Positions 1,566 to 20,000 of a stretch of DNA of 20,000 nucleotides are shown here, one piece after another. The notes under the pieces are model-generated. The model saw nothing but the letters and a program-made list of their open reading frames with translations, did not search any database and was not told the DNA's origin. Source of the DNA: Psammoneis japonica (Eukaryota); contig QPGO01000266.1 of assembly GCA_008632985.1 (NCBI GenBank), positions 61,438 to 81,437 of the forward strand, written 5' to 3'. Position 1 is the stretch's first letter. Every line of letters starts with the position of its first letter. The position numbers and the translations under genes were made by a program.

Positions 1566-2530
1566 GGTCAAGTGAGACCTCCCAAGCCGGGAGTGGGTCA
1601 AGTAGTGTCAAGTTTCATTTTTTATTTTTTATTTTTTGTAAACTGGTCACCCCCTCGTTTTTATGGCCAGTGGCTAAAATTTTGTGTAGACACATACCAG
1701 GTTTGTACGCTCGTATATTTTCTACACAGAAAATATTTACTATCCATTTTACTGAAGCTATAAATGTCATATCTGTAACGGTTTGCTGCTAAATAAAGTT
1801 CGTTAATATAAAATATGAGTTAGCCGGGGTAGGGCTAGTTGGTCGCGCACGTTTGGGTTCGATGCAGCCGTGCAACTAGCCATACCCTTCAGGAAGAGCT
1901 GTTGGTTGCGCGCGAGCAGAAGCAACAAAGCAAAGAACACGGCGTGGGTCAAAACGTTTTAAAATGACGCAACAACAAGCAGCGAGAAGAAACCCAACTT
2001 GACCCATGAATACAGCGCATACATATTGTCCAACCACTTCAATAGTATCTCGTATTCCCAGCTTGTAGATGAGGGGACGGCGTTCACGTTTCTCGCCATG
2101 GTGTTGTTGTGCGTTATCATGTTGTTTGCGCATGAAGAACACGGGATCTATTTATCCGATAGTCACTGTGTTTTGGTAATAGTAGATGTTTCACTATATC
2201 CAATCTGAAGTTATTTTTTGAGAAGCGCTTCGCGACAACCCTGTTCGCACCGTTAAATAGAATTTTTTTTGTGCAGATTCCAGAGTTCTTTCGGGGTGTT
2301 CTGTAAGATTTTTGAATTGTGGTATATATATTTTAAAGACAAAAGAAATTTCAATGATATGTAAAAGCTTCGGAGATGTACATAAATTTATCTTTCATGT
2401 AGATCACGTAGATTATGTACCGGCGGAAAATCCACCGCATGTCAACTCACTCAGCAGCAATTCTACGTATATTCTACTTACACCTCACACACGTACACCC
2501 ACACCTACACAGTCTAATAACCGTGCACTA

Positions 2531-4250
2531 AGTGCTCGAGATCAAGTTGCGCACAGACTTGGCCGGCCACAGAAGGAGGAAAGGTGGTGCTGGGTGGGGC
2601 GGGCACACGATTGATGGAAAAAGGTGATGGGATGATGGATGATGTGGGCAAGGAGGGGGGCAGCAGAGCAAGGTGACAGGCTTGTTGCTGTGGTGCAGCA
2701 AATGTTGAGTGTTGGGGCACTCTGTGGTTGTCCATTGATAAAATCAGAAAGAAGGGCCCAACGGGTGAGTGCCAGCTGCAGCACCATCGTGCCTCCTGGA
2801 GATCTGGAACATTTGGTGCAACCTGAGTTGTGGTGTGCAGCTTGAAGCCAGGGGGGGGGGGCAAGAGAGCAGATGGGACAAGAAATGGTGCACTGGCGCA
2901 CAGAAGACACAGCAGCAAGGCACCAGCTGGCAGCAAACACAGGTTTTGCTGTTGGAAAACAAAAGATTTGCACTCTCAGACAGCTCCATGGCTGGCATGA
3001 ATTGCAAGTTTCATGGAAGGAAGCTCAAGTGCCACGCAAGTTGCACTGTGTTAAAAGGTGAAGTCAAGTCACAAAGACTCTTGTGTTGAAAGCAATGTGA
3101 AACAAAAAGCAAAGAGGGGGGCCTCGCTGGGGTGGAAGAGAAGTCCCGGCTCGGTCCACTCGCCGGGACGAGCTGGTTGTTTGTTTTGCAATGGGCTCAA
3201 TTTTGACATCCAAGCAGTTGAGAGCAAACTCCAGATGCAGTTTTGACACAAAATGACCAGTTTCTCAAGGGATTTCCTTCACCCAGTTTGTGCTGTGGTG
3301 CAAGTGCTGTGTGGACAGCAGCTGCAGCTCGGGGGCCAGTGCCAGGTGGCAACCCAGATGCATCAGCTTGCTCTTCAAAAGAGCTGCAGTCACAACCTAA
3401 CAAAGCCAGATGGCAGTTGCCAGAAGCAGATCTCTTGCTTGAAGTGAAGCTGCTGCTGAGTTGTTTTTGCACATGAAGAAAAACAACAAGAAAGCTCATT
3501 TCCAGCTGTGCCAGTGGGGCTGCTGGGTTTGCAAGTGAGAACAGGGGTCGTGCTGCAAGCTGGGGTGAGCAAAGTCACTGGAGACAACTCAAACTGGGGT
3601 CATGTGCATGATCTTGAAAAAAGGGAACAGGAGCACTGGATCAAAAGAAGAGAAAAAAAAGCACTGCACAGGCAAGGGCACCCTGCCGAGGCAGCAAAAA
3701 GCATGCCAATTGGCTTTGCTCCCTAGATGCACCAGCTGCTCCCCTGCAAAAGAGTTTTGTTGTTGCTGTGTTTCTGTCTTGTGCTTGTCATCAAAGTTTT
3801 GCATGTGTGCCGGACAAGCTGATGATTTGAACAAGGTGATGAAGCAACACACAAACATGGAGTGTGTGCATGGAAGTGGGCCGCATTTTGTAAAGGAGTT
3901 TCTGGCAATGCAGAGCAGCAGAGAACCTGCTGTGCAATTTAAAACCACCCACAAATGAATCATGGTGAGGCACTGAAAAGCGTGACAGAGCAAACTGGCG
4001 AGGGAACAAACTGCAAAGCATGGTCATGGTGTGCAAGCTCAAAACTCCTTTTCTGTGTTCTGCATTTTCGATGCACTGGCCAAAGGACTGCTTCAATCTT
4101 GACATCTCTCAGGCTTTGCTTCTGACAAAGTGATGAGGATTCCAATGTTTGTGCCATTGGCTGCAGGCATCCCGTGGCCTGTCATTGTTTTGTCTTTCGT
4201 TGGTGCGAACACAGTGGCACAACACATGCACAGACAGATGGGTGTTGTGT
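2531..4250. other. TpA-depleted and CpG-depleted, CA/TG-rich tract; probably a hypermutated repeat relic of unknown family
   Basis: Hand count: about 6 TA and about 26 CG dinucleotides in 1,720 bp, against roughly 100 each expected at even base composition. ORFs in all frames are Cys/His/Gln-rich and nearly Tyr-free. The left flank (2461-2530) is TA-rich. Confidence 0.7.
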
Positions 4251-5350
4251 CATTTTTAAGGGGCTTAAGTGATTGTTTTATTGGGCTTATGTGATGTTTT
4301 GTCAGTGGGCATTGCATTTAAGTGTTTTGGCCAATCAGAAAACTCTTCCTAAGATTTGCGATATTTTCGTCAAAGGAAAAGAATAAATGAAATGCTCTTT
4401 CTTTTGCCCAAACAACAAATCACAATTAGCCATATCGAAACAAAGGCAATTTGTTGATGTCACATGTGTCATGACATGATGTGATCATATTTGTTCTATC
4501 ACTGCGTCACGATCATCACAACACTGTCGTGTAGCCCTCCAAAAACACGATTAGCGAACTTAGCGTCACACAATCATACTTCTATATTCACGAACAATTT
4601 TTACAACTCCTCACATGCGTTCTCTCATCAAAGAATACTTTTTCAGGTAGTGACGTCATTCGTGCTATTTTTTTAACAACTTCAATGCCTTTCTATCTCG
4701 AAAACGAGTCAGAATCCCCCCACTTTTCTTGTTTCCAAAACATCTCTTTTACTCAGCTGCATAACATGAGCGAATCATAAAAAAAATCTGTTGAACCATT
4801 TTGGAGATATTTCTGCTTTTATGTAATCGTGTGGTATGTCATGAGCTCTTTTTCTGAATTTTGGTCTCAACTTCACGATCGGTGTTCCATGCATGGCAAC
4901 GTACATCTGGGACACCAATAATCCAGGTGTCACACTAGCCGTCAAGATTTCTTGAAATAAAACCCGACATTTTCTCCCTTTAATCCAAGATTGTGCTGAT
5001 TTGACAAGTCAGCTTTTCTGAAATATTCAACAACAAACATCTATGTTCCTCAATTTAACTATTTACCCCCCCCCCCATCCGACAAGCCTTATGTGTATAT
5101 TTAATTCTATTTTAATTTCTGGATTGTGTGTTAATCAACTTTCTGGATCAAAATCGCCGCCTGTGTCCGTCAATCTAGATTCTAATTGTTTTCTCAATTT
5201 TCTCTCCCTGCCCATTCCATCCTTCCTCCCCGTCCATCCGCACGTTGTATCTCTATGTTTCTACCCTCACTGTGTCCCCAAGTGATTAATGCTGCACCCA
5301 CTGTTTACTTTCGATTCTCTTCTCAACTCCTTTGTCTATGTGCATCGGCC

Positions 5351-7831
5351 ATGTCGTCTGATGGTCTTGTTTGTCCATGGTGTAAACGAACCGGTTTCTT
5401 TTCCGAACGTGGCCTCAGCAGGCACATCGCAACTAACTGCCTCCGTTCCGCCATTTCCACCAAGTCTTTTAGTTGTCCTCGTTGCGGACAACGTGGATTT
5501 GACTCTGAAAACAACGTGCAGTATCACCTATCTCGGCACTGCACCGCAGCATCTGGTCTCCATCCCCCCTTGACACAGTTGCGCCGTACAACCCAACCAT
5601 CTTCTTCATCCGGCGGAACATCTCTTTCCTCTCATCCTCTGGATTCTGCCTCCGTCGGCTCCCTTGGATCCAACACCAACAAACCCAAATGTCCCCATTG
5701 CCGTGTTCCCTTTTCCAACATCGCCCTTCATCTACAGAAGTACTTGCCCTGCCGTGAAAAAGAGGAAATGTCCCTTCGCCTACATGCCGCATCTTCCACT
5801 GCCGCCCATGCACTTCCCCCTCCAGACGACGACCATGATGAATCACTGGACGACCATGATGATCCTGCTGGGTTTGGTTTCTCTGACGACAACCCCCCTC
5901 CTCCCCTCCCCGAAGTCCTTTGGAATCCAGCTCCATCTCTTCCCACACCAACGGACAATTCTTTTCCAGCTTGTCCTCCCTCTGCCGGAAGTGGACTACG
6001 CCCACCCTCCGTCAGACGCTCTGGTCGATTGCGTTCAGCTGCCAACTTTGCTGCCGCTAGTGCAGCCTCCCAAAATGTCCGCCGATTTGTTTTGTTTGCA
6101 GATGATGGTGTGTCCGCCCTTGGAGAGGACAGTCCTGTGGATGTTCCCGAGTTCATTGGAGCCGACCGTCGCGATGGTAGTTGTGGCCCCCCCTCAATTT
6201 CCCGTCCGATAGAAGATCCTGTTTCCTCCCTCGATCAACACAACCCTCTTGGCCCACCGCGTGATATCGCACCCGATGAGGATTTTGATGTACCTCCAGT
6301 CTACTCGCCCAGCATCGTACCCATGGTACGTTTGCTACATTTGTGTCGTTGGTCAGGTGTTGCAATTGACTTTGTCGACAAAGTAATGAGAATTTTGCAT
6401 GAAGAGCATGCAGAAAAAAGACTGGATTTGTCCAAGCCACCCATCACTACCGCCGTGGCGATGAAGCAACTCCTAGGGTTATTTCCCAATGTTCCTCTCC
6501 CCCGCACTGCCACTGTGATGCTAGAATGTAACAATCCAACACAGCAACAGAAGGATGGACCCAAATGTCGTTGCTCCCCACCTTTCCCGGTTTACAGTTT
6601 CACCGAGACCTTGCAGGATCTCTTCACCGAGCCAGTGTTCCGTGATCTTTCCAAGTTGCAGGTTAATCCAAATGATGTCTGGTCACCTTATGTGCCACCC
6701 CCCACCGACGGCGATTTGGAACCCAGCGCTAGCCCGGCTGACGGTTTTGAGATGTCGTTCCCGGATTATCCTGGGGACTGGCGATTGTCCACTCAAAGTC
6801 AAGACATGGGTGACGGCGAGTGGCAACAACGTTGCACCAATGCAAAGGAAACGGCATCTGATTTTCACGTTCACCTTGTTAATTACTCGGACAAGACCGG
6901 AGTTAATGCGGTCAATCCTCACGGGATGGAGCCTGTAATGTACTCACTTACCATGATTCGAGAGGACGCACGCCGTGACTACCGTTGTTGGCGTCCACTC
7001 GGATTCATACCCAATTTGGACAGGAAAGACAAGAAAGACAAGCTTGGGTACCTTGTTGTTGCCAACTGTCACCGCATTCTCAAGGAGGTCCTCCGTGGTC
7101 TGCTTCATTGCCAGGCGAATCCACCCATTGTTCGTGCAATAACAGGCACTCAACACCGCTATGTCAGAGCGGTGATACATTGCAACTCCCTGTTGGGGGA
7201 CATCCTCAATCAAGAACGCATTTGTGGAAGAGTCATGGGCCGAAGCAAGACCGAGAGGTTGTCTCACAACTGCCATGTGCCCTCCCACCGTTCTGATGAC
7301 CCCCTTCATGTCTGCCAATTTTTTAACCAAGCTTTCATAGAGTTGCTCACTGTAGCTGCATTGGGTCCGGATCCAGAGGATGACAACAGCCGTTGGCACC
7401 AGCATGTTAAAAGCGTTTCCCGGAAACATCGTACAATGACATCAAAAAAAAAGACTGAGACTGAGCTAGCTTCATCCCTCATTCGCCGAATGACTATATG
7501 CTCCAAAATTTTGAGAAAAGTGTTTGGACAGCACGCAGTGGACAATGCTTACTTTCCACTTAACATGGGCGACAACCCACGTGGTGTATTTGGCATGACC
7601 GTTGCTGACATAATGCATGTGTTGGAGGCGGGCATTGTCCCTCAAATGATGGAGGTAATCATTGGAGAGATGTCTGCCAAACAGAAAGAGGAATACGACC
7701 GTATTGCATCTGAGTTGTTCTGCACATCCCATTGTCGTCCAGGTCAGAGACGTGACTGCCCACGAATTCGAGTTAACGGGGGACTTTCCACACTCAATCA
7801 ACTTGCTAACATATCTAAAAGCACTGGTTAG
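5351..7831 (+). CDS. Plavaka-like (CACTA-related) DNA transposase with N-terminal zinc fingers, apparently 3'-truncated
   Basis: Three CxxC..H..C fingers (CPWC, CPRC, CPHC), a Pro/Asp-rich linker, then YSDKT..MEPVMYSL..WRPLGFIPNL, GDILNQERICGR, DIMHVLEAG and RDCPR..GLSTLNQL, matching recalled Plavaka-type motifs. First ATG is at 5351. Similarity stops near 7810. Confidence 0.7.
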   Translation: MSSDGLVCPWCKRTGFFSERGLSRHIATNCLRSAISTKSFSCPRCGQRGFDSENNVQYHLSRHCTAASGLHPPLTQLRRTTQPSSSSGGTSLSSHPLDSASVGSLGSNTNKPKCPHCRVPFSNIALHLQKYLPCREKEEMSLRLHAASSTAAHALPPPDDDHDESLDDHDDPAGFGFSDDNPPPPLPEVLWNPAPSLPTPTDNSFPACPPSAGSGLRPPSVRRSGRLRSAANFAAASAASQNVRRFVLFADDGVSALGEDSPVDVPEFIGADRRDGSCGPPSISRPIEDPVSSLDQHNPLGPPRDIAPDEDFDVPPVYSPSIVPMVRLLHLCRWSGVAIDFVDKVMRILHEEHAEKRLDLSKPPITTAVAMKQLLGLFPNVPLPRTATVMLECNNPTQQQKDGPKCRCSPPFPVYSFTETLQDLFTEPVFRDLSKLQVNPNDVWSPYVPPPTDGDLEPSASPADGFEMSFPDYPGDWRLSTQSQDMGDGEWQQRCTNAKETASDFHVHLVNYSDKTGVNAVNPHGMEPVMYSLTMIREDARRDYRCWRPLGFIPNLDRKDKKDKLGYLVVANCHRILKEVLRGLLHCQANPPIVRAITGTQHRYVRAVIHCNSLLGDILNQERICGRVMGRSKTERLSHNCHVPSHRSDDPLHVCQFFNQAFIELLTVAALGPDPEDDNSRWHQHVKSVSRKHRTMTSKKKTETELASSLIRRMTICSKILRKVFGQHAVDNAYFPLNMGDNPRGVFGMTVADIMHVLEAGIVPQMMEVIIGEMSAKQKEEYDRIASELFCTSHCRPGQRRDCPRIRVNGGLSTLNQLANISKSTG

Positions 7832-8303
7832 TCCCGCTCAGTTTCGATTCTCGGAATTGGAACAAACCCTTCTGAATGACAGAGCCTCAATTTGGTGTCA
7901 AGGCTGTTTTCTATGCTAAACGGGGCCAGATGCACTGGCGGGGGACAATGCCCAGATGGATTATTGGTCAACACTGCAGGTTGAGTCGGGGGTGGAATGT
8001 CATCGGGAGAGAAGTACGATGTATCGGACGGAAAAGAGATTCGTTGGTTCCATTTCGGTAACGTGGCCTAACAGGTAAGGGATTTGGTATGATTCTTCGG
8101 GGTGGGATCATTTTGAGGTTGTTGTTCTGCAACGGGAATGACAAGGCTACGGAAGACAAGAAATAGAGTTACCCAAACAATGTCTGTTCGCTGCTCAACA
8201 TGAGTTGATCAGCGACTTGGACAAGATTCGGGAGAATGTGGTTTGCTGTGGGAGAGGTACTTTATATCACGATACTGTACAGGCTAGTATTAAGTGTATA
8301 AGT

Positions 8304-8498
8304 AAAAAAGTGGCACCAAAGGTGTGCATTACCATGTGTGTGTATTAACAAAAAACTGATACCAAATTCTTCTGTTAACAAATATGTTTAATAATAGAAA
8401 GGTGACACCGAATTACTTTGTTAACAAATAGTTCTAATAATAAAAAAGTGATACCAAATTACTATGTTAACAGACAGGTGTATTACTAAAAAAGTGAT
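8304..8498. repeat. Diverged tandem repeat, exact 46-bp period, about 4.2 copies
   Basis: The aaaaaagTGataccaaatt..tgttaaca unit has its TG at 8311, 8357, 8403, 8449 and 8495. Confidence 0.85.
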
Positions 8499-8701
8499 GG
8501 TTTGTTTGTGGTGCGGAATGTACGGTGGATGGAAGCTTTTGCTTTGTGTCTGCCGCTGTGGTGATGTGAAAATATCTCACATCATCACTAACAGAATTGT
8601 GAGTAACAAAATTGTTTTCTATGCTTTTGAGATAGCTAGGATGACCGATATAATGAGATCCTTCAGTAAACAGGATCGACGAAGATCATATCACACGACG
8701 T

Positions 8702-8761
8702 GACTATTTGCAAAAAAAATGTCTGTGATGCACCCGACAGATAGACTACCGTTGTCAAAAC
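8702..8761 (+). repeat. Copy 1 of a diverged 60-bp direct repeat split by the Gypsy insertion
   Basis: gactattt..aaaaaaa..acagatagact.ccgttg.caa.ac aligns without gaps to 13767-13826. Confidence 0.85.
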
Positions 8762-9192
8762 TGCAGTATGCCTCGCTACTGGACAACACGGCGAGACCGT
8801 GCATAAGCCTCTTGTACGTGGCAACGTAGCATTGTTAACGCGTACCTGGGAAGCACGACCACAGGAGGGCGTGGCTCTAGGTCTTAGGCAATTCCAGAAG
8901 GATGCTAAGAGAGCATCCGTGTGAAGCACACTAGCCCGTCGTCTGGCCCACGATGGTAGCGTGATTCCACACGATGACATCACTCGTGCATGGCGCGTGA
9001 TGGCTTGATTCGCACGATCCATAATGCGAACGCACGATCGATTTGATACGATCCAAATGCGAACGAATAGGGATTTGGCAAGATTCCCTATTCGCACGAT
9101 CCCACTTTCTCTACTCTAAACTAGCTCATAATTTTCACAACGACAAAGTCGTAACACATCTTCTTTTCAGCGCCTAGCACATACATAGGGCA
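8762..9192 (+). repeat. Gypsy 5' LTR
   Basis: TGCAGTATG...CATAGGGCA; 427/431 identical to 13323-13753 by manual comparison. Confidence 0.97.
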
Positions 9193-9253
9193 CAGTAATA
9201 TTACTCCCGCATATTGTGTGAGGTAACGAAATCTACAGAAACGAAACTACGAA

Positions 9254-10426
9254 ATGTTGGTAGGACCGACAAATCTCAAAATGACCATGAAGAAGCAGAT
9301 TAAGCCGCCGATTCCGTTCGCACGGCCGGAGAAGAAAGAGCTACAGCAGGGCGAGCACCAGACGTTCAAACTACGTAACAACCCTGCTGATCCGGATAGT
9401 CCAACGCATGAGATGGGCATCCCGTACCTTTCTACGGCTACATGCAAGACACTCCTAATCTTTCTACGCAACGTGGATCGCATGCATGAAGGACAAAACA
9501 TGACGACCGGGCCAGCGAAATTTGCCCTTATGCGTGACCTACTACAGGGCGATGCTCTGACGTCATTCAACAATGCCGCTGACAAGCAGGCATCCCAAAC
9601 CAACGCTACGTACGCAGCATGCGTCGCGAAGCTAAAGGAAAGTATCTTCCCACATGGGGCGGTACCATTGCAGAAGCATTATCTGAGGCGCTTCATGCGC
9701 AAGCCCGCAGAGGTTTCTACTCGTGACTATGTCACGAGGGCTGTTGAAATTAACGGCTGTGTCTCTCAGTTTCCACCCGTGACGGAGGATGGAGAAGCAC
9801 CGGCACCATTACCTAATGACAAACTATGTGATATGTTCGAGTACGGTGTGCCGAACGCATGGCAGAAGTTCATGACGCTACAGAATTTTGACCCGTTGGC
9901 GCATACTATCGCCGAATTTGTACAGTTCTGGGAGCGCATCGAGCAGGTCGAGCTTGCCGAAGGTAACCTGGACCAACATGCTAAGATTCCACGTAAGCGG
10001 GGACGTAGAACGGACAATCCTGAGTCGTTGATCACGACCCAATGGAACACCCAGAAGTCGTGTATGCTACACGGGACTAACTGTGGACATCATACGGAGG
10101 ATTGCCGTCAGCTCAAGCACCACGTGAAACGTGTCAAGACTGGACATTCCAATAACGGAGGCAGCAAGCCTAATACAAAACCTCGGAATGAGGAAGACAT
10201 TAACACTCTCATCGGATCGAAGGTCGAGGAGTTCTTTGCCAACGCTCAAAAAAAGCGCAAGGCACGCGAGGAGGAGCTTAATCACTTCCGCGACCTCAAC
10301 TTAAGTGCTCGTTCAGTACGTCTAACGACTGTACCGTTAAATTTCGGTTACCAGAATTATCCGAAACTGCAGAACTTGAACATACCGTCCACGTACACAA
10401 CGGAAAGTTGGGCAAGTACGATATGA
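9254..10426 (+). CDS. gag: Gypsy Gag; true C-terminus lost near 10310, the remainder is out-of-frame read-through
   Basis: PPIPFARP, QKHYLRRFMRKP, EYGVPNAWQ and zinc knuckle CMLHG...HHTEDC, located directly after the 5' LTR. Confidence 0.88.
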   Translation: MLVGPTNLKMTMKKQIKPPIPFARPEKKELQQGEHQTFKLRNNPADPDSPTHEMGIPYLSTATCKTLLIFLRNVDRMHEGQNMTTGPAKFALMRDLLQGDALTSFNNAADKQASQTNATYAACVAKLKESIFPHGAVPLQKHYLRRFMRKPAEVSTRDYVTRAVEINGCVSQFPPVTEDGEAPAPLPNDKLCDMFEYGVPNAWQKFMTLQNFDPLAHTIAEFVQFWERIEQVELAEGNLDQHAKIPRKRGRRTDNPESLITTQWNTQKSCMLHGTNCGHHTEDCRQLKHHVKRVKTGHSNNGGSKPNTKPRNEEDINTLIGSKVEEFFANAQKKRKAREEELNHFRDLNLSARSVRLTTVPLNFGYQNYPKLQNLNIPSTYTTESWASTI

Positions 10427-13283
10427 TTATTGGACGTGACATTCTGGAGACACAAGGCATTGACATTGTCTTCTCTAAACAAATGACAGAGTGGCCATTG
10501 GTCAATGGAGAAGTGCCAATGAGGCACGTAGATGCTACGGTAAAAACCTCCTTCTATCTTCAAGATCCAGAAGCCTTATCTTCGGAAATCTTCGGAAACC
10601 GACTGGATTTCACGTATTTTAGACGCCAAGTGCACGCCGGCCTGCCTCGAGGACATAACGCGAGAGGCAATAGGACTTTCTACAGTTCAACAAAACGACC
10701 TTTTGGCACTATTGAAATGCCATGAGTCCTTATTTGATGGGACATTAGGAGAATGGAAGGGAGAACCCTACCACATCCAACTCAAGGAGGGTGTAGAACC
10801 ATGCCACGCTCGTCCGTATAAAGTACCTCGTGCATACGAAGAAATGCTACGTAAGGAAGTAGAACGCCTAGTGCATATCGGTGTTCTCAAACGCGTTAAC
10901 CGATCCCAATGGGCAGCTCCATCATTTATCATACCGAAGAAAGACTTAATGGTACGCTTTATTAATGATTTCAGAGAGCTGAATAAACGGATCAAGCGAT
11001 TGCCTTATCCGATTCCTCATATCCAAGATATGCTACTTGAGCTCGAAGGCTTTATGTGGGCTACATCGCTGGATTTAAACATGGGCTATTATCACATCTG
11101 ATTGGATGCTGATAGCAAGAAGCTCTGCACGCTCATCTTCCCATGGGGCAAGTATGAGATGCAGGTATTGCCCATGGGATTATGTAATTCGCCAGACATT
11201 TTCCAAGAACGCATGTCAGGCTTATTTGAAGATCTATCGTTCGTTCGAACGTACTTAGATGACCTTCTCGTCGTGACGAAAGGCACCTATGAAGATCACC
11301 TCAACAAACTTGAAGAAGTTTTATTGAGGGTCCAGAAAGCAGGACTAAAAGTTATCGCAACTAAATCTCATTTCTGTCAAACCCAATTAGAATACTTGGG
11401 TTATCTGGTCAACAGAGACGGAATACAACCAATACCTAATAAAGTCGACGCCATTAAGCGAATCGCGACCCCAACCAATAAACGCGACCTACGGTCATTT
11501 ATTGGTGTGGTGAACTACTACCGTGACGCGTGGATTAGACGTTCTGAAGTCTTGGCTCCGCTAACACGACTCGTAAGCGAGACTGTTAAGTGGGAGTGGA
11601 CGTCCGTTGAAGACGAGGCGTTCGAAACCGTTAAACGGGTGATATCGGATGATATCTTATTATCACATCCTGATTTTAATAAACCCTTTGAGATACATAC
11701 CGATGCCTCTAAATATCAATTGGGAGCAGTTATATCCCAAGATAATAAACCTGTCGCCTTTTACAGCAGAAAGCTTAATAGTGCGCAATTAAATTATACA
11801 ACAACGGAGAGAAAATTGCTCGCCATTGTGGAGACGTTGAAAAAATTTCGAACGATTCTCCTTGGTCATCGTATAATTATATATACTGATCATAAAAATC
11901 TTACGTACAAAGTATTCAATACCGAGCGCGTTATGCGCTGGCGGTTAATATGCGAAGAATACGGTCCCGAATTACGCTATGTTAAGGGTACCCATAACTT
12001 AGTCGCTGACGCTCTTAGTCCTTCGGCTAGCACCCAGCTTGCCTTCCAAGGCCAATCCGGATGTAAAAGACACTCCATCGAGTCGTCCTTTGCATGAAGC
12101 TTTTAATGCAGACGCGCAAGACGACATATCTCTGCCTATTAGCTTCAAGCGCATTCAAAAAGCACAACAAAAGGACAAGCACCTACTCTCACGAGCTAAG
12201 GACTCGTCCGACTACTCCATTCGCGCGTATCGTGGGGGAGGGTCATCACGACAGTTAATCTGTCATAAGGACAAAATCGCAGTACCACAGTCATTGCAGG
12301 TTCCGCTAACTGAATGGTACCACGAGACACTGTGTCATCCAGGTGAGACACGTACGGAAATATCTATTGCCCAGCACTTCTACTGGCCTAGTATGAGGTC
12401 TATGGTGCATTCTACGTGCGTTAAGTGCGATCGATGCCAGAAGACAAAACGCCGAACGCAGCATTATGGGAAGCTACCAGAAAAGGTCGCAGAGATAATT
12501 CCATGGGAGACTCCATGCATGGATGTGACAGGGCCATATAAAATTCAAAGATGCGGAAAGGACACTTTGCAATTATGGGCAGTCACAATGATTGACCCAG
12601 CAACCGGGTGGTTCGAGATTGAAGAAGTGTCTACGAAACGCGCAGACGTCGTAGCAAACGTCGTGGAACAAACGTGGCTATGCAGACATCCGTGGCCAAC
12701 CCAGGTGGTTTATGACCGTGGGACAGAATTTATGGCAGAATTTAGCCAGATGATTAAAAATGACTATGGGATTTTGAAGAAACCCATAAGCAAGCGGAAT
12801 CCACAGGCAAATGCCATGGTGGAACGTGTGCACCAGACACTTGGTAACATGGTACGTTCCTTTTCAGTACAGGATATGGAACTGGACGAAGATGACCCAT
12901 GGAGTGGCATCCTCTCCGCAGTAGCCTTCGCTATTAGAGCTACGGTACACACGACCACGCGTGCAAGTCCCATGCAATTGGTCTTCGGACGTGATGCGGT
13001 TTTATCTATTGCCCATCGTGCTAAGTGGAAGTACATAGAAACCAGAAAACAGAAGCTTATTCACTTAAATAACAAGCGTAAAAATCAGAAATGCAAGGAG
13101 CACCAACACACCGTAGGGCAATTGGTACTTATCAAACAGGAACAATCCTCTAAATACGGTTCTGACAGCCATGCAGGGCCCACCAGAGTTGTCCGTGTAT
13201 ATGACAACGGCACGTTGCGTATCCAGAACGGAGCGCTGATAGATACGTACAATCTACGGCAGATTGTACCCTATCACCAGTAA
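10312..13283 (+). pseudogene. pol: Gypsy Pol (half protease, RT, RNase H, integrase), disrupted
   Basis: YDMIIGRD (PR C-half); WAAPSF, DFRELN, LDLNMGYYHI, LPMG, YLDD (RT); TDAS, YTDHKNL, ADALS (RNase H); H..LCHPG..CxxC, YDRGTEF, NPQANAMVERVH (IN). Lesions: 10-bp duplication 10578-10597, TGA at 11099-11101, 4-nt insertion at about 12020-12023. Confidence 0.95.
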
Positions 13284-13313
13284 GACATCCTGTCACTTAA
13301 CCGCCCTGATCAT

Positions 13314-13320
13314 GGGGGAG
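13314..13320 (+). other. Polypurine tract of the Gypsy element
   Basis: GGGGGAG ends 2 nt before the 3' LTR. Confidence 0.85.
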
Positions 13321-13322
13321 TG

Positions 13323-13753
13323 TGCAGTATGCCTCGCTGCTGGACAACACGGCGAGACCGTGCATAAGCCTCTTGTACGTGGCAACGTAGTATTGTTAAC
13401 GCGTACCTGGGAAGCACGACCACAGGAGGGCGTGGCTCTAGGTCTTAGGCAATTCCAGAAGGATGCTAAGAGAGCATCCGTGTGAAGCACACTAGCCCGT
13501 CGTCTGGCCCACGATGGTAGCGTGATTCCACACGATGACATCACTCGTGCATAGCGCGTGATGGCTTGATTCGCACGATCCATAATGCGAACGCACGATC
13601 GATTTGATACGATCCAAATGCGAACGAATAGGGATTTGGCAAGATTCCCTATTCGCACGATCCCACTTTCTCTACTCTAAACTAGCTCATAATTTTCACA
13701 ACGACAAAGTCGTAACACATCTTCTTTTCAGCGCCTAGTACATACATAGGGCA
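13323..13753 (+). repeat. Gypsy 3' LTR
   Basis: Direct repeat of 8762-9192, followed by the TSD AAAC. Confidence 0.97.
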
Positions 13754-13766
13754 AAACATCACATGG

Positions 13767-13826
13767 GACTATTTACGAAAAAAACACCCGTGGTGCCCAC
13801 AACAGATAGACTGCCGTTGGCAACAC
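13767..13826 (+). repeat. Copy 2 of the 60-bp direct repeat (69-bp period in the reconstructed empty site)
   Basis: Ungapped alignment to 8702-8761. Confidence 0.85.
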
Positions 13827-13952
13827 ACATTTAGCGAGAAAGCCGTTTTCATTGCAAAGTAATGGGTGCGGACTTTCGCTATATTGGGTCTGTTCCACTT
13901 AAAGAAAAAGACTGGGTACCAATTGATTTGGCAGAACAGGCAACTTCAGAGA

Positions 13953-14726
13953 ATGGCGCGGAAGTGTTCTGTGAACGGATGCCGGAAATTTGCCCGTTGG
14001 CCGACAACATTATGCCAGAAACATGGCAAGTTACTAACACGCCTGGGTGAAATGAAATCTCATGTCGTCAAGAGCAAGAAGGTGGGGTCCAAAGAAAGAG
14101 AGCACCAGGAAAGAAAAAAAGGCTACTTACAAAAATTCAAAACACCACCACCCCTGCTCAACAAGATAACAACGCTTGCAAACAAGGCACCAAGTAGGAA
14201 GGGAGAAAAGGAAGGACACCGTTTTGTCGGTGAGTTCGCCATTAACAAAAAGGAAAAGGCGGAAGGTATTGGGTTGGCAGAAAAAATGTTGGAGTTAATT
14301 CCTGGCTTTCCCCTGGTGGGTGATTTAAGCAGAAAGATGTCCCGGCACACAGCAGTAAACGCTCCTGCTTCAAGTTCAAGATCTAACTTCTGGTCAAAGG
14401 GGGAAATTCATCGCGATTACGCGGAAACAAAATTATTACCTGGTAACAAATTTTTCACCATGTTTCTGTTCCTCGATGACACGACGGAGCACAATGGTGC
14501 AGTGGAGACATGGCCGGATAGTTGTGAGGTAACATTGAATGAGAAGGAACGCGAAAGACAATTGGTTAGGTTGGGTTTGGAAAAACAATTACTGGTTGGA
14601 GAAGCAGGCACTGCATTTGTTTTTGACGCAAGAATCATGTTGCACCGAGCTTTGCCTAACAAAATGAATTCGGATCGAAGGAACATGGCATGTCTAGTCC
14701 ATAATTTCGACACAGTAAGTGTGTGA
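13953..14726 (+). CDS. PhyH-like 2-oxoglutarate/Fe(II) dioxygenase with an N-terminal CxxxGC..LCxxHG zinc finger and basic linker
   Basis: MARKCSVNGCRKFA..LCQKHG; Lys-rich linker; IHRD (HxD), FLFLDD..NGAVETWPDS, GEAGTAFVFDARIMLHRALPN (distal His) and a downstream Arg (SDRR). First in-frame ATG at 13953; ORF uninterrupted. Confidence 0.78.
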   Translation: MARKCSVNGCRKFARWPTTLCQKHGKLLTRLGEMKSHVVKSKKVGSKEREHQERKKGYLQKFKTPPPLLNKITTLANKAPSRKGEKEGHRFVGEFAINKKEKAEGIGLAEKMLELIPGFPLVGDLSRKMSRHTAVNAPASSSRSNFWSKGEIHRDYAETKLLPGNKFFTMFLFLDDTTEHNGAVETWPDSCEVTLNEKERERQLVRLGLEKQLLVGEAGTAFVFDARIMLHRALPNKMNSDRRNMACLVHNFDTVSV

Positions 14727-15679
14727 ACATAGTAAGCGTGTGAACAAGTGTGTGTTGGAATACAAAACTAGCGAAGTAGTAAGTTGACATAGGTACAAAG
14801 TGGGTTTGTGTAGAGGGCTAATAAACAATGCATTGCTTACATAGACGACAGTTACATCACAAACAAAGTGAAATTGCAAAGTTACCCACTTTTGGCAGGC
14901 TTGAATTTACGTTTGATGTCAGACCCTAGGTCGTTCCTAGTGGAATGCCTAGTCTCCACGGCATCGTCTCTTTTCTTGGTGCACTTGTGAAGTAGGTGCC
15001 TGTCGACACCGCCTCCCCACGATAGATTGTCTGGACAGGCAGGAACAAAGAATGCTTCATGCCTCCATTTGTGCGTATAAACACAAAACATCATGTCCAG
15101 TGAAATAACAATGGCACCTTCAGGACACTCGTTGGACAGCTTCTCCTTGAGTTGGTTCTGTGGACGCGTTCCAGCCCCAGGTGGGACTCCGTGTGACATT
15201 GGGCCCGTAGAATTCTACGTGCGAGCTCCGTAGTACGAGAATTTAATTAATGGATATATTTATCTTCAACATCAAATAAACGGCCAAGTTTGTGGCACAA
15301 TTATGCCTCTCACCACTCGACGTTTTTGCAAATGCGCCTGCCCTATGCGATTCTTAAGACATTAAAGAATCGCGCTGTAACAAAAAATGTCAAAAGTTGT
15401 TGGACGGATCGCTCAATAAGTGTACCGTAAAATGACACAAAATGTCGAAAAAATCACGTAGAAATCTACGTGCGCGACATACGACGTGATTCAAAAAACT
15501 GTCGATGTCACAGTTCAGCAGTACGAGGTCCCACCTAGACCTGGAACGCGTCTGTGTCGCGTTGTTGTCAAAAAGCATTCGCCCATTGTAGTTATTGAAA
15601 AAATCTTTAAGTTGTTCAGACGGTACAACCGACGAACAGCATCGTCTTCAGAGAGGAAGTCCTGATTGATCAGGGCAGG

Positions 15680-15955
15680 TGACAGGATTTGAACAGGATT
15701 TAGGTGCGCGCGAAATATCGCGAGCTGTTTAGTTTCCCGCGCACAGTTTTGTGTGCTTTAGTTCTGCACGTTTGCACGCGATGTAGTTTCCTTTCGAGCC
15801 ACAAGGCTCACAAAAATAATAACAATAGCCCGATTATACCGACTTACACGTCTTTCGGCTCCTGTAACGGTCTCTGAGCGGAGACTCATCTGCCATTTAG
15901 ACAGCAGTAAGGAGTTGTTGTTTGAATTCTTGCCATTTGCCTTCATTTTCTGTCA
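15680..15955 (+). repeat. Candidate Copia 5' LTR (276 bp)
   Basis: Bounded by the inverted repeat TGACAG(GATTTGAA)...(TTCATTTT)CTGTCA and followed immediately by a tRNA-complementary 11-mer. The second LTR is outside the window. Confidence 0.65.
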
Positions 15956-15966
15956 GATTAACAGTC
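15956..15966 (+). other. Candidate primer-binding site complementary to the tRNA-Asn(GUU) anticodon arm
   Basis: GATTAACAGTC; its reverse complement GA-CT-GTT-AA-TC has anticodon stem-loop layout. Confidence 0.6.
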
Positions 15967-16785
15967 TTGCTCATTGTCAACCCATTGAGCAACCGCCATC
16001 ATCGTCGTTGATTTACCGACGACGCCATTTCAATTCTGCGTGGACCTCCGTATATGTTCTACGTACATCGGCAAGTCTACGCGCATTCAATGCCAGGCAT
16101 CGGCAGGAAGTTAACGTCACCGTCAAGTCTCCTTACCGCTGGATATCTGGATTGATTATACTACCTTTTATCGCTGAAGACATACATTCAACGGTCACAT
16201 CCAAGTCTATCCTTGATCCTCATCCCTCAATATACCCATTCATCGGTTAACGGTCAAGAACCCTACACATTCAAGGCTCTTCGTCGCTGAGGACACACAT
16301 ACACACATATCTTCACGGCCAAGAACTTGTACCCACTCTTTGGACTACGGCTTTGCTGCCACTCTACAAGCACACAGAGTCCATTGTACCTGATCTACCC
16401 CGGACTACTGGTGCTCTACAGTTCTGCCAGGTCTACGAGGATGACTGTGAGAGCAAGTAGCCGTGATTACAGCCTACGTTGGGGCGAGGGTGTTTTCCCG
16501 CGTTTGTTCGTTCGTCCACAGCGCCTAACGCCTACGTCAACTGGCCAGCCTGATCGGGAAATCCAACCGATATAAAATAAGAACGGTTCGGGGGTCTTGT
16601 CCACCTCTAGTCAGCTTACCTGCAGGGGTTTACAACCCGCTACTCCGCTCATAATCAACCCAAAGCACCACTAGCTGCGGGTTCGGACGTGCCGGCACAA
16701 CTCTACGGACCGGATAGGAAGTTTAGCACTTAACAACGAACGGGATAGCACAGCCCGGCGACTTCTGATTTTAAGGTAGTTCAAG

Positions 16786-16820
16786 ATTTCAAGTCAAGTC
16801 TATTTCAAGTCAAGTCTATT
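16786..16820 (+). repeat. 16-bp tandem repeat (ATTTCAAGTCAAGTCT x2) in the Copia leader
   Basis: Direct reading; more CAAGTCT copies lie near 16124, 16202 and 16834. Confidence 0.85.
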
Positions 16821-16891
16821 CTCACCCAAGTTTCAAGTCTACCTTCGCTTCCCAACAAGAATTGCTTGTCCTGACACCACTTTTGTCTACC

Positions 16892-19800
16892 ATGGTTCTC
16901 ACTCGTCAGCAACAAACTGATGGTTTCAAGCACGTTGTTGGAACCGTGCTTGCCCAAGGTGCTGGGAGCCCTCTTCGTTTGGCTTTGACCCAAGACGGCA
17001 CGGACTCGTGTCAAGAACTGTTCACGTTCATGCCGTCCCAAATCGACTCGCTTGAGTACGATAACGGCACTAATGTGATCCCTTTGCCCCGCGGTTATAA
17101 GAACATGTTAGCAGCTCTAATTAGTCTGTACATTGTCAAAGCACACGAAGGTCTTGACATTGCCAATGACTCCTCGTTGTCCACGCATGATGAGTTCCTT
17201 GCCTACCGCCTCAGCCCCGACTGCATGTCTTCTGTGTCCGTCGGCAGCTCGCCCCTCGCACCTCCGCATGTCACCAACCCGACCAAGGCACGCGACCCGG
17301 TACGAGACTTCAAGCGAGGCATCAAGCGTGACCCCACCGCTTTCACGGCTCTCAAATCCGACAAGCAGTGGCACACTTGGCACACCTCACTTGTGGCACA
17401 AGCCCGTGCCCAAGACGTCGAGTGCATTCTAGACTCGTCGTACAAACCGACCAGCCCCGAAGACAAACTGCTCTTTGCTGAACAGCAAAAGTACATGTTC
17501 GCCGTCTTTGAACGCATCCTTCTCACCAACAAGGGCAAGGCTCTCATTCGCGAAAATGTGGGGTCTTCTGACGCCCAGACCGTCTACCGCGCCTTGTCTG
17601 AGCATGCGCTCGCCTCCACCCGCGCATCTGTCGAGTCCTCCACCTTGCTCACGTACCTTACCACCGCACGTCTTGGTGATGGTACTTGGAAAGGTCCGAC
17701 CCACGGGTTCATCCTTCATTGGCAAGATCAGTTGCGCAAGTACGAGGCACTCATCCCGGCCAGTGACCACTTCTCTGAAGGACAGAAGCGCGTCATGCTC
17801 GAGAATGCCGTACATCCTGTCGAGGAACTTCGTGCTGTCAAGAACCAAGCTGATCAGCATCGTATGCAGAGTGGCAAGAGCCTCACATACGATCAATGTT
17901 GTGGCTTGCTCCTCTCCGCGGCGGCTCAGTACGACAGTACGTTTCAACCCAAGACGACACCTCGAGCTCCCCAACGCGCCATATACGCACACGACGTCTA
18001 CTCCGAGGAACCGTCCGATGATGTGTTCTACGACATTGACAGCGACATTGACGTCCTTCAGGCTAATGCTGCCTACACCCGTGGTCCCAGCCTCACCGGT
18101 GACCAATGGAAACGTCTCCCTCCCGACCACCAACGGATTTGGGATTCGTTGCCCCATTCCTCCAAGGCGATCATCCTTGAGCATTCTCATCCACCTCCCC
18201 GCAACCCGCGAGCCAGCAACTACCATGAGTCCGTTACGGCCAACCTTCACGACCAACGCCTTGGGAGTGACGGTGATGTCAACTTGTCCAACACGACTCC
18301 TGCTGACTCTGGTGACCCCGCTCCAAATGTGGATGCCACTTCGGATAATCCCATCCTGGCGCACCTCACCAAGCGCAAGCCACTGCCACCCGGTGATCTG
18401 CAACGCCTGTTGTCTCCTAACCAAGCCCCCAATGCTAGTCGACCGGGGCCATCCGCCGCTCCCTCTACCTCGCCAGCTCCCACCAATGACATAGAACTTA
18501 ACGGCCGCACTTACCGCCGCGTTAATAACCACAATGTCATTTACTCTGCCTCTGCTCATCGCTCCACACGCACTGGTGCTCTAGTCGATCGTGGGGCCAA
18601 CGGCGGCATTGCTGGCAACGACGTTCACGTCATTGCACGCACCTCTCGCCAAGTCGACGTTCAGGGCATTGACGACCATCAATTGGTGGACATCCCTGTT
18701 GTCACCGCTGGTGCCGTCATTGAGACACAGCGTGGTCCCGTCATCGCCATCCTCCATCAGTGCGCATGCACGGGAAAGGGCAAGACCATTCATTCCTGCG
18801 GCCAGCTCGAATGGTACAAACAGGATGTCAACGATCGCTCTGTCAAGGTGCCCAACGGCTTGCAACGTATTGCCACCCCTGATGGCTATGTCATCCCAAT
18901 TGACATCAAGGGCGGCCTGCCTTATGTTGCCATGCGACCTTACACTGATGCCGAATGGGACACCCTGCCCCATGTCATCCTTGCCGGTGATGACACATGG
19001 GATCCTTCTGTCCTCGATCACTCTGTCACTGACGACGACCAGTGGTACGATGCGATCTCTGACCTACAGGACGATCCCACTGCCAACCTATTTGATGAAT
19101 ACGGCAACTACCGTCATCGTGTTGTTGTCAACAAGACCATCATGTCCGCCCCCTTGTCTGCCGATCACGCGTCCGCCCTCGATGATCACCTCATTCCGAA
19201 CGACGACGTGTTCTACGAGTGTCATCTACACGCGATTGACCCCAAGGACGATGACGTTCCGCCCCCGGAGCGCACTGTGCAGCCCAAGGACCCCCCCTTC
19301 GAGTCTCTTCGGCCTTGCTTTGGCTTCCTACCTACCGACACGGTCCGTCGTACTTTTGACTGCACCACGCAGTACGCCCGCATGCCCGCCGGTACACACC
19401 TTAGGAAGGCCTACAAATCGCCCAACCCCGCCCTTAATGTGCACCGCCGCAACGAGCCTGTCGCCACTGACACCGTTTATGCCGACACCCCGGCCGTCGA
19501 CTCTGGTTGCACCAGCGCCCAACTGTTTGTTGGCACCGAGTCTACTGTCACTGATGTCTACGGCACCAAAACGGACAAAGAGTTTGTCAACACACTCAAG
19601 GATCAGATCCGTGAGCATGGTGCCCCATCCAAACTCATTAGCGACCGTGCTCAAGTTGAGATCAGCAACAAGGTGCTCGGGATCCCACGAGCCCTCTTTA
19701 TCTCCAGCTGGCAAAGTGAGCCTCACCAGCAACACCAAAACTTTGCCGAGCATTGACACCAGACCGTGAAGCACATGGCAAACACTGTCATGGATCGTTT

Positions 19801-20000
19801 CAGTTCGCCTGCCCACACATGGCTGCTGGCGCTCATGTACGTGTGCTTCATACTCAACCACACAGCGTCCCCACGTCTCCACTGGTGCACACCCCTCGAG
19901 ACTCTCACTGGCTCCACCCCGGACATCAGCCCATTGCTTTGCTTTCACTGGTGGGAACCCGTGTACTTCCACCTCGATGACTCCGTTTGGCCATCCGAAT
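16892..20000 (+). pseudogene. Copia Gag-protease-integrase polyprotein with a premature stop at 19754-19756
   Basis: MVLTR start; FKRGIKRD, QQKYMFAVF, FILHWQDQLRKYE (Gag); ALVDRGANGG (PR); VATDTVYADTPA, LISDRAQVE, WQSEPHQQHQN (IN). The frame continues past the TGA as HQTVK..WLLALMYVCFILNH..GSTPDIS..WEPVY. Confidence 0.92.

What the first reader, a model, noticed from the sequence alone, without database searches (positions are those of the whole stretch)
8762..13753. All four differences between the two Gypsy LTRs are TA<->TG/CA; none of the more than 30 CpGs differs
Seen: 8778 A/13339 G (TAC/TGC), 8830 C/13391 T (GCA/GTA), 8992 G/13553 A (TGG/TAG), 9178 C/13739 T (GCA/GTA). Established: LTRs are normally identical at insertion, so this is a database-free record of post-insertion mutation. 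Inference: if TA is ancestral, 3 hits fell in the 5' LTR and 1 in the 3' LTR, on both strands, with 3 of 4 in TAC context. The TA process would then outpace CpG decay in a young element, and LTR-based dating would be inflated. The LTR pair alone cannot give the direction of change.
Basis: partly seen in the sequence, partly recalled or inferred. Interest (0 to 1): 0.8.

Follow-up and report, generated by a model that had tools for sequence, protein, structure and literature searches.

The report
LTR mismatches confined to TpA/CpA steps
A young, broken Gypsy-type retrotransposon has two end repeats that differ at four bases, all at TA versus TG/CA steps; the pattern is real and probably not chance, but the available evidence points to ordinary C-to-T change making TA, not to a new TA-eroding process.

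Summary
The LTRs (8762-9192, 13323-13753; 431 bp, TG..CA, 4-bp target duplication AAAC) differ at exactly the four transitions listed. All four are TA vs TG/CA, and none falls in the 33 CpGs. Three of the four also share one tetranucleotide, AG[Y]A.

Chance probability is about 0.0045, or about 0.001-0.03 once free choice of motif is allowed for.

No genome is held, and no same-family copy could be fetched. The only outgroup was one lay of public contigs, which printed 40 of 914 variant rows and none for the four sites.

What it shows:
- Two further LTR changes private to this element (9022, 9048) are also TA-class and go towards TA.
- Site 3 is most simply TG to TA.
- Seven of nine other polarised TA-class changes in the family go towards TA.
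- In the 4.1-kb interior, CpG loss dominates: CG-class is 10 of 18 private transitions and TA-class only 3.

So a context bias in the LTRs is likely real. Its direction is probably the classical CpA/TpG to TpA, and it does not outrun CpG decay across the whole element. RIP indices are negative and the host is unidentified. With n = 4-6, the verdict is tentative.

The parts
8758..8761 (.). Target-site duplication AAAC, left copy
   Evidence: Read directly. The same four bases follow the 3' LTR.
8762..9192 (+). 5' LTR, 431 bp, TG...CA termini; 33 CpG, 24 TpA
8778..8778 (+). Mismatch 1: A here, G at 13339 (T[A/G]CT)
8830..8830 (+). Mismatch 2: C here, T at 13391 (AG[C/T]A)
8992..8992 (+). Mismatch 3: G here, A at 13553. 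The neighbouring base 8991/13552 is T here but C in 15 contigs of run X1.
9178..9178 (+). Mismatch 4: C here, T at 13739 (AG[C/T]A)
9022..9022 (+). T in both LTRs (also 13583). Other copies have C in 25 contigs, 13645.8 of 13780.7 depth. This is a CpA to TpA change private to this element.
9048..9048 (+). A in both LTRs (also 13609). Other copies have G in 34 contigs, all of the depth. This is a TpG to TpA change private to this element.
9227..10426 (+). Open frame in the gag position (399 aa), with no Pfam match
10544..12097 (+). Reverse transcriptase and RNase H frame, interrupted by an in-frame TGA at 11099-11101
10578..10598 (+). 10-bp tandem duplication (ATCTTCGGAA, 2.1 copies) where the reading frame changes. 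A minority of X1 contigs lack it.
   Evidence: (table 4)
12003..13283 (+). Integrase frame (zinc-binding H2C2 and rve core). It is entered through a frame change near 12019, where about half of the family depth carries two extra bases.
   Evidence: table 4
13314..13320 (+). Purine run GGGGGAG just before the 3' LTR (polypurine-tract-like)
   Evidence: Read directly
13323..13753 (+). 3' LTR, 431 bp
13754..13757 (.). Target-site duplication AAAC, right copy

Best explanation
The feature is a young, defective Ty3/Gypsy insertion with LTR divergence 0.93%. Its LTRs have accumulated C-to-T / G-to-A transitions at CpA/TpG steps, creating TpA. This is the classical deamination direction, not the loss of TpA. 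On this reading the 3' LTR took three hits (13391, 13553, 13739) and the 5' LTR one (8778).

The bias looks like a context-dependent cytosine-deamination process that is visible in the LTRs. The LTR CpGs are spared, plausibly because they are not methylated. The interior of the same copy decays mainly at CpG.

Shown: the mismatches, their contexts, the different spectrum of the interior, and the direction at neighbouring LTR sites.

Inferred: the direction at the four sites themselves, the enzyme or chemistry, and why LTR and interior differ.
For: 1. The four mismatches are all TA-class.

2. Laying public contigs (5541 contig pieces of run X1 laid at 80% likeness or more; 40 of 914 variant rows printed) shows two more LTR changes carried by both LTRs of this element but by essentially no other copy.
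- 9022 is T against C. The window allele has depth 134.9 of 13780.7. That is about two copies, if the depths of 55-75 that the joint-spanning contigs show are taken as one copy.
- 9048 is A against G, with the window allele at depth 0 of 41314.9.
- Both are TA-class with TA derived.
- Together that makes 6 of 6 LTR changes TA-class (0.259^6 = 0.0003). Against the interior (3 TA-class of 18), Fisher P = 0.0006.

3. Site 3. The X3 contig over 8903-9067 is family-typical at 9022 and 9048. Its only kinds of change are A>G and T>C, so it has G at 8992. No T>C row at 8991 is printed for it. A TG haplotype therefore exists outside this element, and a single G-to-A change in the 3' LTR suffices.

4. 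Other TA-class changes polarised by privacy or minority status run 7 towards TA (9022, 9048, 8604, 11654, 13156, 10198, 10258) against 2 away (12818, 10204). 8604 is itself AGCA to AGTA.

5. CpG loss in the interior is confirmed by distant-relative proteins at 10950, 12403 and 12048. Cytosine deamination is therefore active in this lineage.
Against: - The ancestral base at sites 1, 2 and 4 was never observed.
- The 7:2 direction tally is not significant on its own.
- The interior of the same copy shows no TA-class excess (3 of 18 private transitions). It has no hit at its 62 AG[Y]A positions, against 3 hits in 18 LTR site-copies (Fisher P = 0.0099). A process acting over the whole element is thus not seen, and the restriction to the LTRs is unexplained.
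- At residues conserved in distant Gypsy relatives, the family's older non-synonymous transitions run the other way: 6 of 13 remove TA where 14% is expected (P = 0.005), including Tyr to His four times.
- The host flanks are TpA-poor (observed/expected 0.51-0.60) while the element is not (0.88-0.97). A TpA-eroding pressure would predict exactly that.
- The argument assumes that one search printed all rows with near-100% share. That is my reading of its ranking, not a stated rule.
Confidence: 0.45

Rival explanations
1. Small-sample coincidence. The four mismatches are ordinary neutral transitions with no special context process, and the TA-class and AG[Y]A regularities are post-hoc patterns in n = 4 to 6.
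For: - In the same family, 28 other element transitions printed show TA-class 9 of 28 (32%) against 26% expected (binomial P = 0.52).
- Close pairs of related elements from metagenome contigs give TA-class shares near expectation: for example L011/L026 14 of 37 classifiable transitions against 31% expected, and L005/L006 17 of 60 against 27.5%.
- The interior has no AG[Y]A hit.
- The scan read very many windows, so events at P of 0.001-0.03 must occur by chance.
Against: - P = 0.0045 for 4 of 4, 0.0011 for the joint pattern after allowing motif choice, and 0.0003 for 6 of 6 once the two extra LTR changes are counted.
- The LTR and interior spectra differ at P = 0.0006.
Confidence: 0.2
2. TpA is ancestral and is being lost to TpG/CpA by an A-to-G / T-to-C process acting on both strands, with three hits in the 5' LTR and one in the 3' LTR.
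For: - Host flanks have TpA observed/expected 0.51-0.60 and TpG+CpA 1.24-1.32, while the young element has TpA 0.88-0.97.
- Six of 13 non-synonymous transitions at conserved residues remove TA (P = 0.005).
- 12818 (Ile to Met, ATA to ATG; relatives have Ile) and 10204 go this way.
- Passages of PMC3829696 treat mutations that remove TpA as a fitted parameter for genomic DNA: by those passages they were absent from the most influential parameters in mammals and C. intestinalis, and were fitted at rates several-fold lower in DNA than in mRNA.
Against: - The two element-private LTR changes and site 3 point towards TA.
- The tally among recent family changes is 7:2 towards TA.
- TpA depletion of the flanks may reflect selection on transcripts or intrinsic composition of other elements rather than mutation.
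- There is no TA-class excess in the interior.
Confidence: 0.12
3. Artefact. In a family this abundant, assembly or polishing may have placed variants of other copies, or context-specific base-calling errors, into one LTR.
For: - 5541 contig pieces of one run lie on the element, and 765 fit two places, so reads are easily mis-assigned.
- Family variation is transition-rich (768 transition places against 144 transversion places).
- One search printed no read-level support for either allele at the four sites.
Against: - Borrowing from typical copies (most contigs are 90-95% alike) would bring clustered differences, not four isolated ones 52-186 bp apart.
- At 9022 the window's private allele is present in run X1 at about two-copy depth, so this element's LTR sequence is at least partly confirmed.
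Confidence: 0.1
4. Editing during reverse transcription. A deaminase acts on single-stranded cDNA between the two copyings of the LTR template, so the LTRs already differed at integration.
For: By the standard reverse-transcription scheme (recalled, not from a call), the minus-strand U3-R-U5 is copied twice. Damage between the two copyings would mark only one LTR.
Against: The scheme predicts plus-strand G>A or T>C in the 3' LTR only, and C>T or A>G in the 5' LTR only. Whichever base is ancestral, sites 1, 2 and 4 fit neither; only site 3 can fit (reasoned).
Confidence: 0.03

Closest known systems
Repeat-induced point mutation (RIP) of fungi
   Same: C:G to T:A transitions with a CpA preference in repeated DNA (abstract of PMC2621366). 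The inferred direction and dinucleotide here match.
   Different: - RIP indices are not met: TpA/ApT is 0.77-0.84 where at least 0.89 is required, and (CpA+TpG)/(ApC+GpT) is 1.07-1.17 where at most 1.03 is required (thresholds, values).
- The equally repeated interior is not affected.
- The load is tiny.
- The host is not shown to be a fungus. The Plavaka-like neighbour's nearest Atlas clusters are labelled Rhodophyta, Mucoromycota and Haptophyta.
Deamination of 5-methylcytosine at non-CpG (CHH/CHG) sites in silenced plant-type LTR elements
   Same: C to T at C followed by A. Five of the six LTR sites are CHH (CAT, CAT, CAC, CAA, CAT) and one is CAG. Silencing machinery is often aimed at element ends (recalled).
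   Different: Where non-CpG methylation occurs, CpG is usually methylated too, yet no LTR CpG changed. No methylation data exist here, and the host is unknown.
AID/APOBEC-type cytosine deaminase hot spots (WRC, e.g. AGC)
   Same: Three of the four mismatches, and the flank change at 8604, are at AG[C]A, which fits the WRC hot-spot motif as I recall it.
   Different: Site 3, 9022 and 9048 do not fit WRC. None of the 62 AG[Y]A positions of the interior is hit. No deaminase gene was examined.
General TpA under-representation of genomes
   Same: The flanks show it strongly (observed/expected 0.37-0.65 in 2-kb windows).
   Different: It is a compositional state with disputed causes, selection on UpA in RNA against mutation (passages of PMC3829696). 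It is not a demonstrated mutational process in this element.
Ty3/Gypsy LTR retrotransposons
   Same: TG..CA LTRs, a 4-bp target duplication, a polypurine run, and the domain order RT - RNase H - integrase.
   Different: The best protein match in the public collection searched is 73% identity. This copy is broken by frame changes and one in-frame stop.

Membership tests
Ty3/Gypsy LTR retrotransposon | Two long terminal direct repeats with TG...CA ends, flanked by a short target-site duplication | tested here: met
   431-bp LTRs at 99.07% identity with TG..CA ends, and AAAC on both sides
Ty3/Gypsy LTR retrotransposon | pol domain order: reverse transcriptase, RNase H, then integrase | tested here: met
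   RVT_1 and RT_RNaseH in 11102-12097; Integrase_H2C2 and rve in 12003-13283
Ty3/Gypsy LTR retrotransposon | gag and aspartic protease upstream of RT; primer-binding site after the 5' LTR | tested here: inconclusive
   Open frames at 9227-10426 and 10282-10725 have no Pfam match. The primer-binding site was not analysed.
RIP (fungal repeat-induced point mutation) | C:G to T:A transitions preferentially at CpA | tested here: inconclusive
   The class is met (6 of 6 LTR changes). Direction was observed only at 9022 and 9048, inferred at site 3, and unknown at sites 1, 2 and 4.
RIP (fungal repeat-induced point mutation) | RIP indices TpA/ApT >= 0.89 and (CpA+TpG)/(ApC+GpT) <= 1.03 | tested here: not met
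   LTRs 0.77 and 0.84, and 1.17 and 1.11; interior 0.83 and 1.07. Thresholds are from PMC2621366.
RIP (fungal repeat-induced point mutation) | Acts along the whole duplicated length | tested here: not met
   Interior private transitions: TA-class 3 of 18, CG-class 10 of 18
RIP (fungal repeat-induced point mutation) | Fungal host with the RID/DIM-2 machinery | not testable with these tools
   No genome is held and the host is unidentified
CpG methylation-driven decay | Excess of CpG to TpG/CpA among recent changes | tested here: met
   Met in the interior: 9 CpG losses among 18 private transitions over 247 CpGs, three confirmed by outgroup proteins. Absent in the LTRs: 0 changes at 33 CpGs per LTR, where 1.2-2.4 are expected at the interior rate.
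   The four sites are not in the printed rows. Proxies favour TG/CA as ancestral (site 3, 9022, 9048). Older coding changes favour TA loss.

The most novel reading that the evidence does not exclude
A context-specific cytosine-deamination process (CpA, often AG[C]A) is aimed at the LTR ends of retrotransposons and spares their CpGs. It would work like a light RIP or AID-type genome defence, in a host that may not be a fungus: the nearest labelled relatives of the neighbouring transposase include red algae and haptophytes.
Probability: 0.12. Interest if true: 0.65.

Novelty: new member of a known kind. Interest (0 to 1): 0.3.

Why it matters
LTR pairs are widely used as clocks and as database-free mutation records. 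If a context-specific process acts on LTRs only, LTR ages in this genome would be biased, and the host would have a repeat-directed mutator worth finding.

The present data show a real-looking but very small signal of 4 to 6 sites. Its likely direction is the classical one, and the interior of the same element behaves conventionally, with CpG decay. The finding is therefore a lead for a whole-genome tally, not evidence of a new mutational process.

Tried and rejected
Access to other copies
- No whole genome is held.
- Same-family copies were sought and not found in any of these:
  - the protein collection with the RT-RNase H frame (best hit 73% identity);
  - the protein collection with a translation of the LTR itself, where three of the four sites change the residue (no hit);
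  - metagenome contigs (51 loci, all 70% amino-acid identity or less over long matches);
  - prokaryote genome contigs (1 locus at 34%);
  - viral contigs, by protein and by a 24-base LTR pattern (none).
- LTRs of the distant relatives do not align to this LTR, so they cannot serve as outgroup.
- The Plavaka-like frame found no homologue at E <= 1e-10.
- Earlier findings of the scan held nothing.

Limits of the one lay of public contigs
I chose a long stretch and a 1% share threshold; a shorter stretch might have shown them.

Related elements from other hosts
- Terminal LTR overlaps of related metagenome elements gave mixed spectra. L020 has 8 of 12 transitions TA-class; L004 has 1 of 4.
- Close pairs of related elements gave TA-class shares near expectation.
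- These come from other, unknown hosts and say nothing certain about this genome.

Hypotheses rejected
- Editing during reverse transcription was rejected on strand logic at three of the four sites.
- Ectopic conversion from typical copies was rejected because it would bring clustered differences.

Host identity
- Pfam scans of 27 further frames did not identify the host.
Full report
WHAT IS THERE

The window holds one LTR retrotransposon at 8762-13753. Its two 431-bp LTRs (8762-9192 and 13323-13753) begin with TG and end with CA, and they are 99.07% identical without gaps. AAAC flanks both sides (8758-8761 and 13754-13757), and a purine run GGGGGAG sits just before the 3' LTR.

The interior encodes reverse transcriptase, RNase H and integrase in the Ty3/Gypsy order. 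It is broken in three places:
- The frame changes at a 10-bp tandem duplication at 10578-10598.
- There is an in-frame TGA at 11099, where relatives have Glu or Arg.
- The frame changes again near 12019, where about half of the family depth carries two extra bases (table 4).

The insertion lies between two units of a roughly 70-bp flanking repeat (8702-8761 resembles 13767-13826 at 78%). One public contig shows a paralogous unit junction without the element (tables 5 and 5c). That fits a simple insertion rather than a recombinant.

THE OBSERVATION

The four mismatches are exactly as reported:
- 8778 A / 13339 G
- 8830 C / 13391 T
- 8992 G / 13553 A
- 9178 C / 13739 T

All are transitions between TpA and TpG/CpA. 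None touches the 33 CpGs of the LTR.

Of 429 scorable positions, 111 (25.9%) belong to this class, so 4 of 4 has P = 0.0045 under uniform transitions. It is less if CpG is hypermutable. Allowing any single-neighbour class raises it to 0.032.

I also found that three of the four sites lie in one tetranucleotide, AG[C/T]A (T[A/G]CT on the other strand), which occurs at only 9 positions per LTR. Simulation gives 0.0025 for at least three of four sharing any 4-mer context, and 0.0011 for that together with a shared neighbour. These are post-hoc figures on four sites.

OUTGROUP EVIDENCE

No genome is held, and no same-family copy could be fetched from any collection.

The only window onto other copies was one lay of Logan contigs of a public run:
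- 5541 contig pieces of run X1 lie on 8300-14300 at 80% likeness or more. By likeness they split 674 / 1574 / 2394 / 899 (99+, 95-99, 90-95, under 90). The family is therefore very abundant and diverse.
- Variant places are transition-rich: 768 transitions against 144 transversions.
- They are lopsided. The window has A or T where others have G or C at 511 places, and the reverse at 257 places.
- Only 40 of 914 rows were printed, and none is at the four sites.

The printed rows look ranked by share. If so, they contain every place where nearly all other copies differ from the window.

WHAT THOSE ROWS SAY

In the LTR, two changes are carried by both LTRs of this element and by essentially no other copy.
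- At 9022 the window has T where others have C. The window allele has depth 134.9 of 13780.7. I read that as about two copies, taking as one copy the depths of 55-75 that the joint-spanning contigs show.
- At 9048 the window has A where others have G.
- Both are TA-class, with TA as the derived state.

Base 13552, next to site 3, is T here but C in 15 X1 contigs laid on the 3' LTR. The single X3 contig over 8903-9067 is family-typical at 9022 and 9048. It shows only A>G and T>C changes, so it has G at 8992, and no printed T>C at 8991. A TG haplotype therefore exists in other copies. The simplest history of site 3 is an ancestor with TG and a G-to-A change in the 3' LTR. That is the classical direction.

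In the interior, 18 transitions are private or nearly private to the window copy:
- 10 are CG-class. Nine are CpG losses, and three of these are confirmed by the residues of distant relatives at 10950, 12403 and 12048.
- 3 are TA-class. 11654 and 13156 go towards TA, and 12818 goes away from it.
- 5 are of other classes.

None falls on the 62 AG[Y]A positions of the interior.

Counting the LTR as 6 of 6 TA-class against 3 of 18 in the interior gives Fisher P = 0.0006. Over all 28 element transitions printed outside the four sites, TA-class is 9 of 28, against 26% expected (P = 0.52).

Among TA-class changes that can be polarised by privacy or minority status, seven go towards TA (9022, 9048, 8604, 11654, 13156, 10198, 10258) and two go away (12818, 10204).

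EVIDENCE POINTING THE OTHER WAY

- At 371 positions conserved in at least 80% of distant Gypsy relatives, the element keeps only 17 of 23 Tyr (4 became His, 1 Cys) and 15 of 22 Glu (5 became Lys). It keeps all His, Cys, Trp, Gln, Pro and Asp.
- Of 13 inferable non-synonymous transitions at such positions, 6 remove TA where 14% is expected (P = 0.005).
- The host flanks are strongly TpA-poor (observed/expected 0.51 and 0.60) and rich in TpG+CpA (1.32 and 1.24). The element is near parity (0.88-0.97).

A long-term TpA-eroding pressure would explain both the coding changes and the flank composition. So would selection, or intrinsic composition of the neighbouring elements. These observations concern older history than the LTR pair.

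MECHANISM

I judge a context-biased C-to-T / G-to-A process at CpA/TpG, visible in the LTRs, to be the best reading (0.45).

- It is not RIP by the usual tests. The indices are 0.77-0.84 and 1.07-1.17, against thresholds of at least 0.89 and at most 1.03. The interior is not affected, and the host is not shown to be a fungus. The neighbouring Plavaka-like frame has nearest Atlas clusters labelled Rhodophyta, Mucoromycota and Haptophyta.
- Non-CpG methylation with deamination, or an AID-like WRC hot spot (AGC), are possible chemistries. Both motif preferences are recalled, not tested.
- The sparing of LTR CpGs, against heavy CpG loss in the interior, suggests body-type CpG methylation that stops at the LTRs. 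That is an inference.
- Editing during reverse transcription fails on strand logic at three of the four sites.

PAPERS

- For PMC2621366 I saw the abstract start in a search listing and two passages.
- For PMC3829696 I saw the listing and nine passages.
- Statements about AID, polymerase or deaminase motif preferences and about the reverse-transcription scheme are recalled.

VERDICT

The proposed TA-ancestral process is not supported. The likely direction is the classical one. CpG decay is not outpaced across the element as a whole. The sample is too small to claim a new process.

Noticed in passing
window 1-8761 and 13754-20000: The flanks are strongly TpA-poor (observed/expected 0.51 and 0.60; 0.37 in 2001-4000) and TpG+CpA-rich (1.24-1.59), whereas the Gypsy element is near parity (0.88-0.97). 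Region 2001-4000 also has CpG observed/expected of 0.41.
   Followed up: partly
window 9227-13283 (pol and gag frames): At residues conserved in distant Gypsy relatives, the element has lost 6 of 23 Tyr (4 to His, 1 to Cys, 1 to Met) and 7 of 22 Glu (5 to Lys). It has kept all His, Cys, Trp, Gln, Pro and Asp. On the plus strand these transitions are mostly T>C and G>A.
   Followed up: partly
window 10578-10598, 11099-11101, near 12019: Three breaks in pol: a 10-bp tandem duplication that most of the family depth shares, an in-frame TGA where relatives have Glu or Arg, and a 2-base difference from about half of the family depth. The abundant subfamily may be non-autonomous.
   Followed up: partly
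window 5186-7831 (+): An 881-aa open frame with a weak Plavaka (KDZ) transposase match (E = 4e-5, below the Pfam cut-off) and a C2H2 finger. Its nearest Atlas clusters are Plavaka-bearing, labelled Rhodophyta, Mucoromycota and Haptophyta. No homologue at E <= 1e-10 was found in the protein collection.
   Followed up: partly
window 16775-19756 (+): A 993-aa open frame without a Pfam family, in a 57% GC stretch. Its nearest Atlas clusters are unnamed; further hits are retroelement gag/integrase clusters at low score.
   Followed up: no
window 8339-8498, and 8702-8761 / 13767-13826: A 46-bp tandem array (3.5 copies), and a roughly 70-bp repeat unit on both sides of the insertion. The flanks themselves are repeated in run X1 (summed depth about 700-3900, against about 65 for single-copy contigs), and one contig shows a unit junction without the element.
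   Followed up: partly
L020:1-289 and 5029-5317: The terminal LTR overlaps of a related metagenome element (67% RT identity) differ at 13 sites. Of the 12 transitions, 8 are TA vs TG/CA. Other related contigs do not show this.
   Followed up: no
window 8604: In the repeated left flank, the window has T where 12 contigs (97.8% of depth) have C, in the context AG[C]A. This is the same tetranucleotide as three of the LTR mismatches.
   Followed up: partly
window 13863-14726 (+): A 287-aa open frame with weak PhyH / 2OG-Fe(II) oxygenase matches below the Pfam cut-offs.
   Followed up: no
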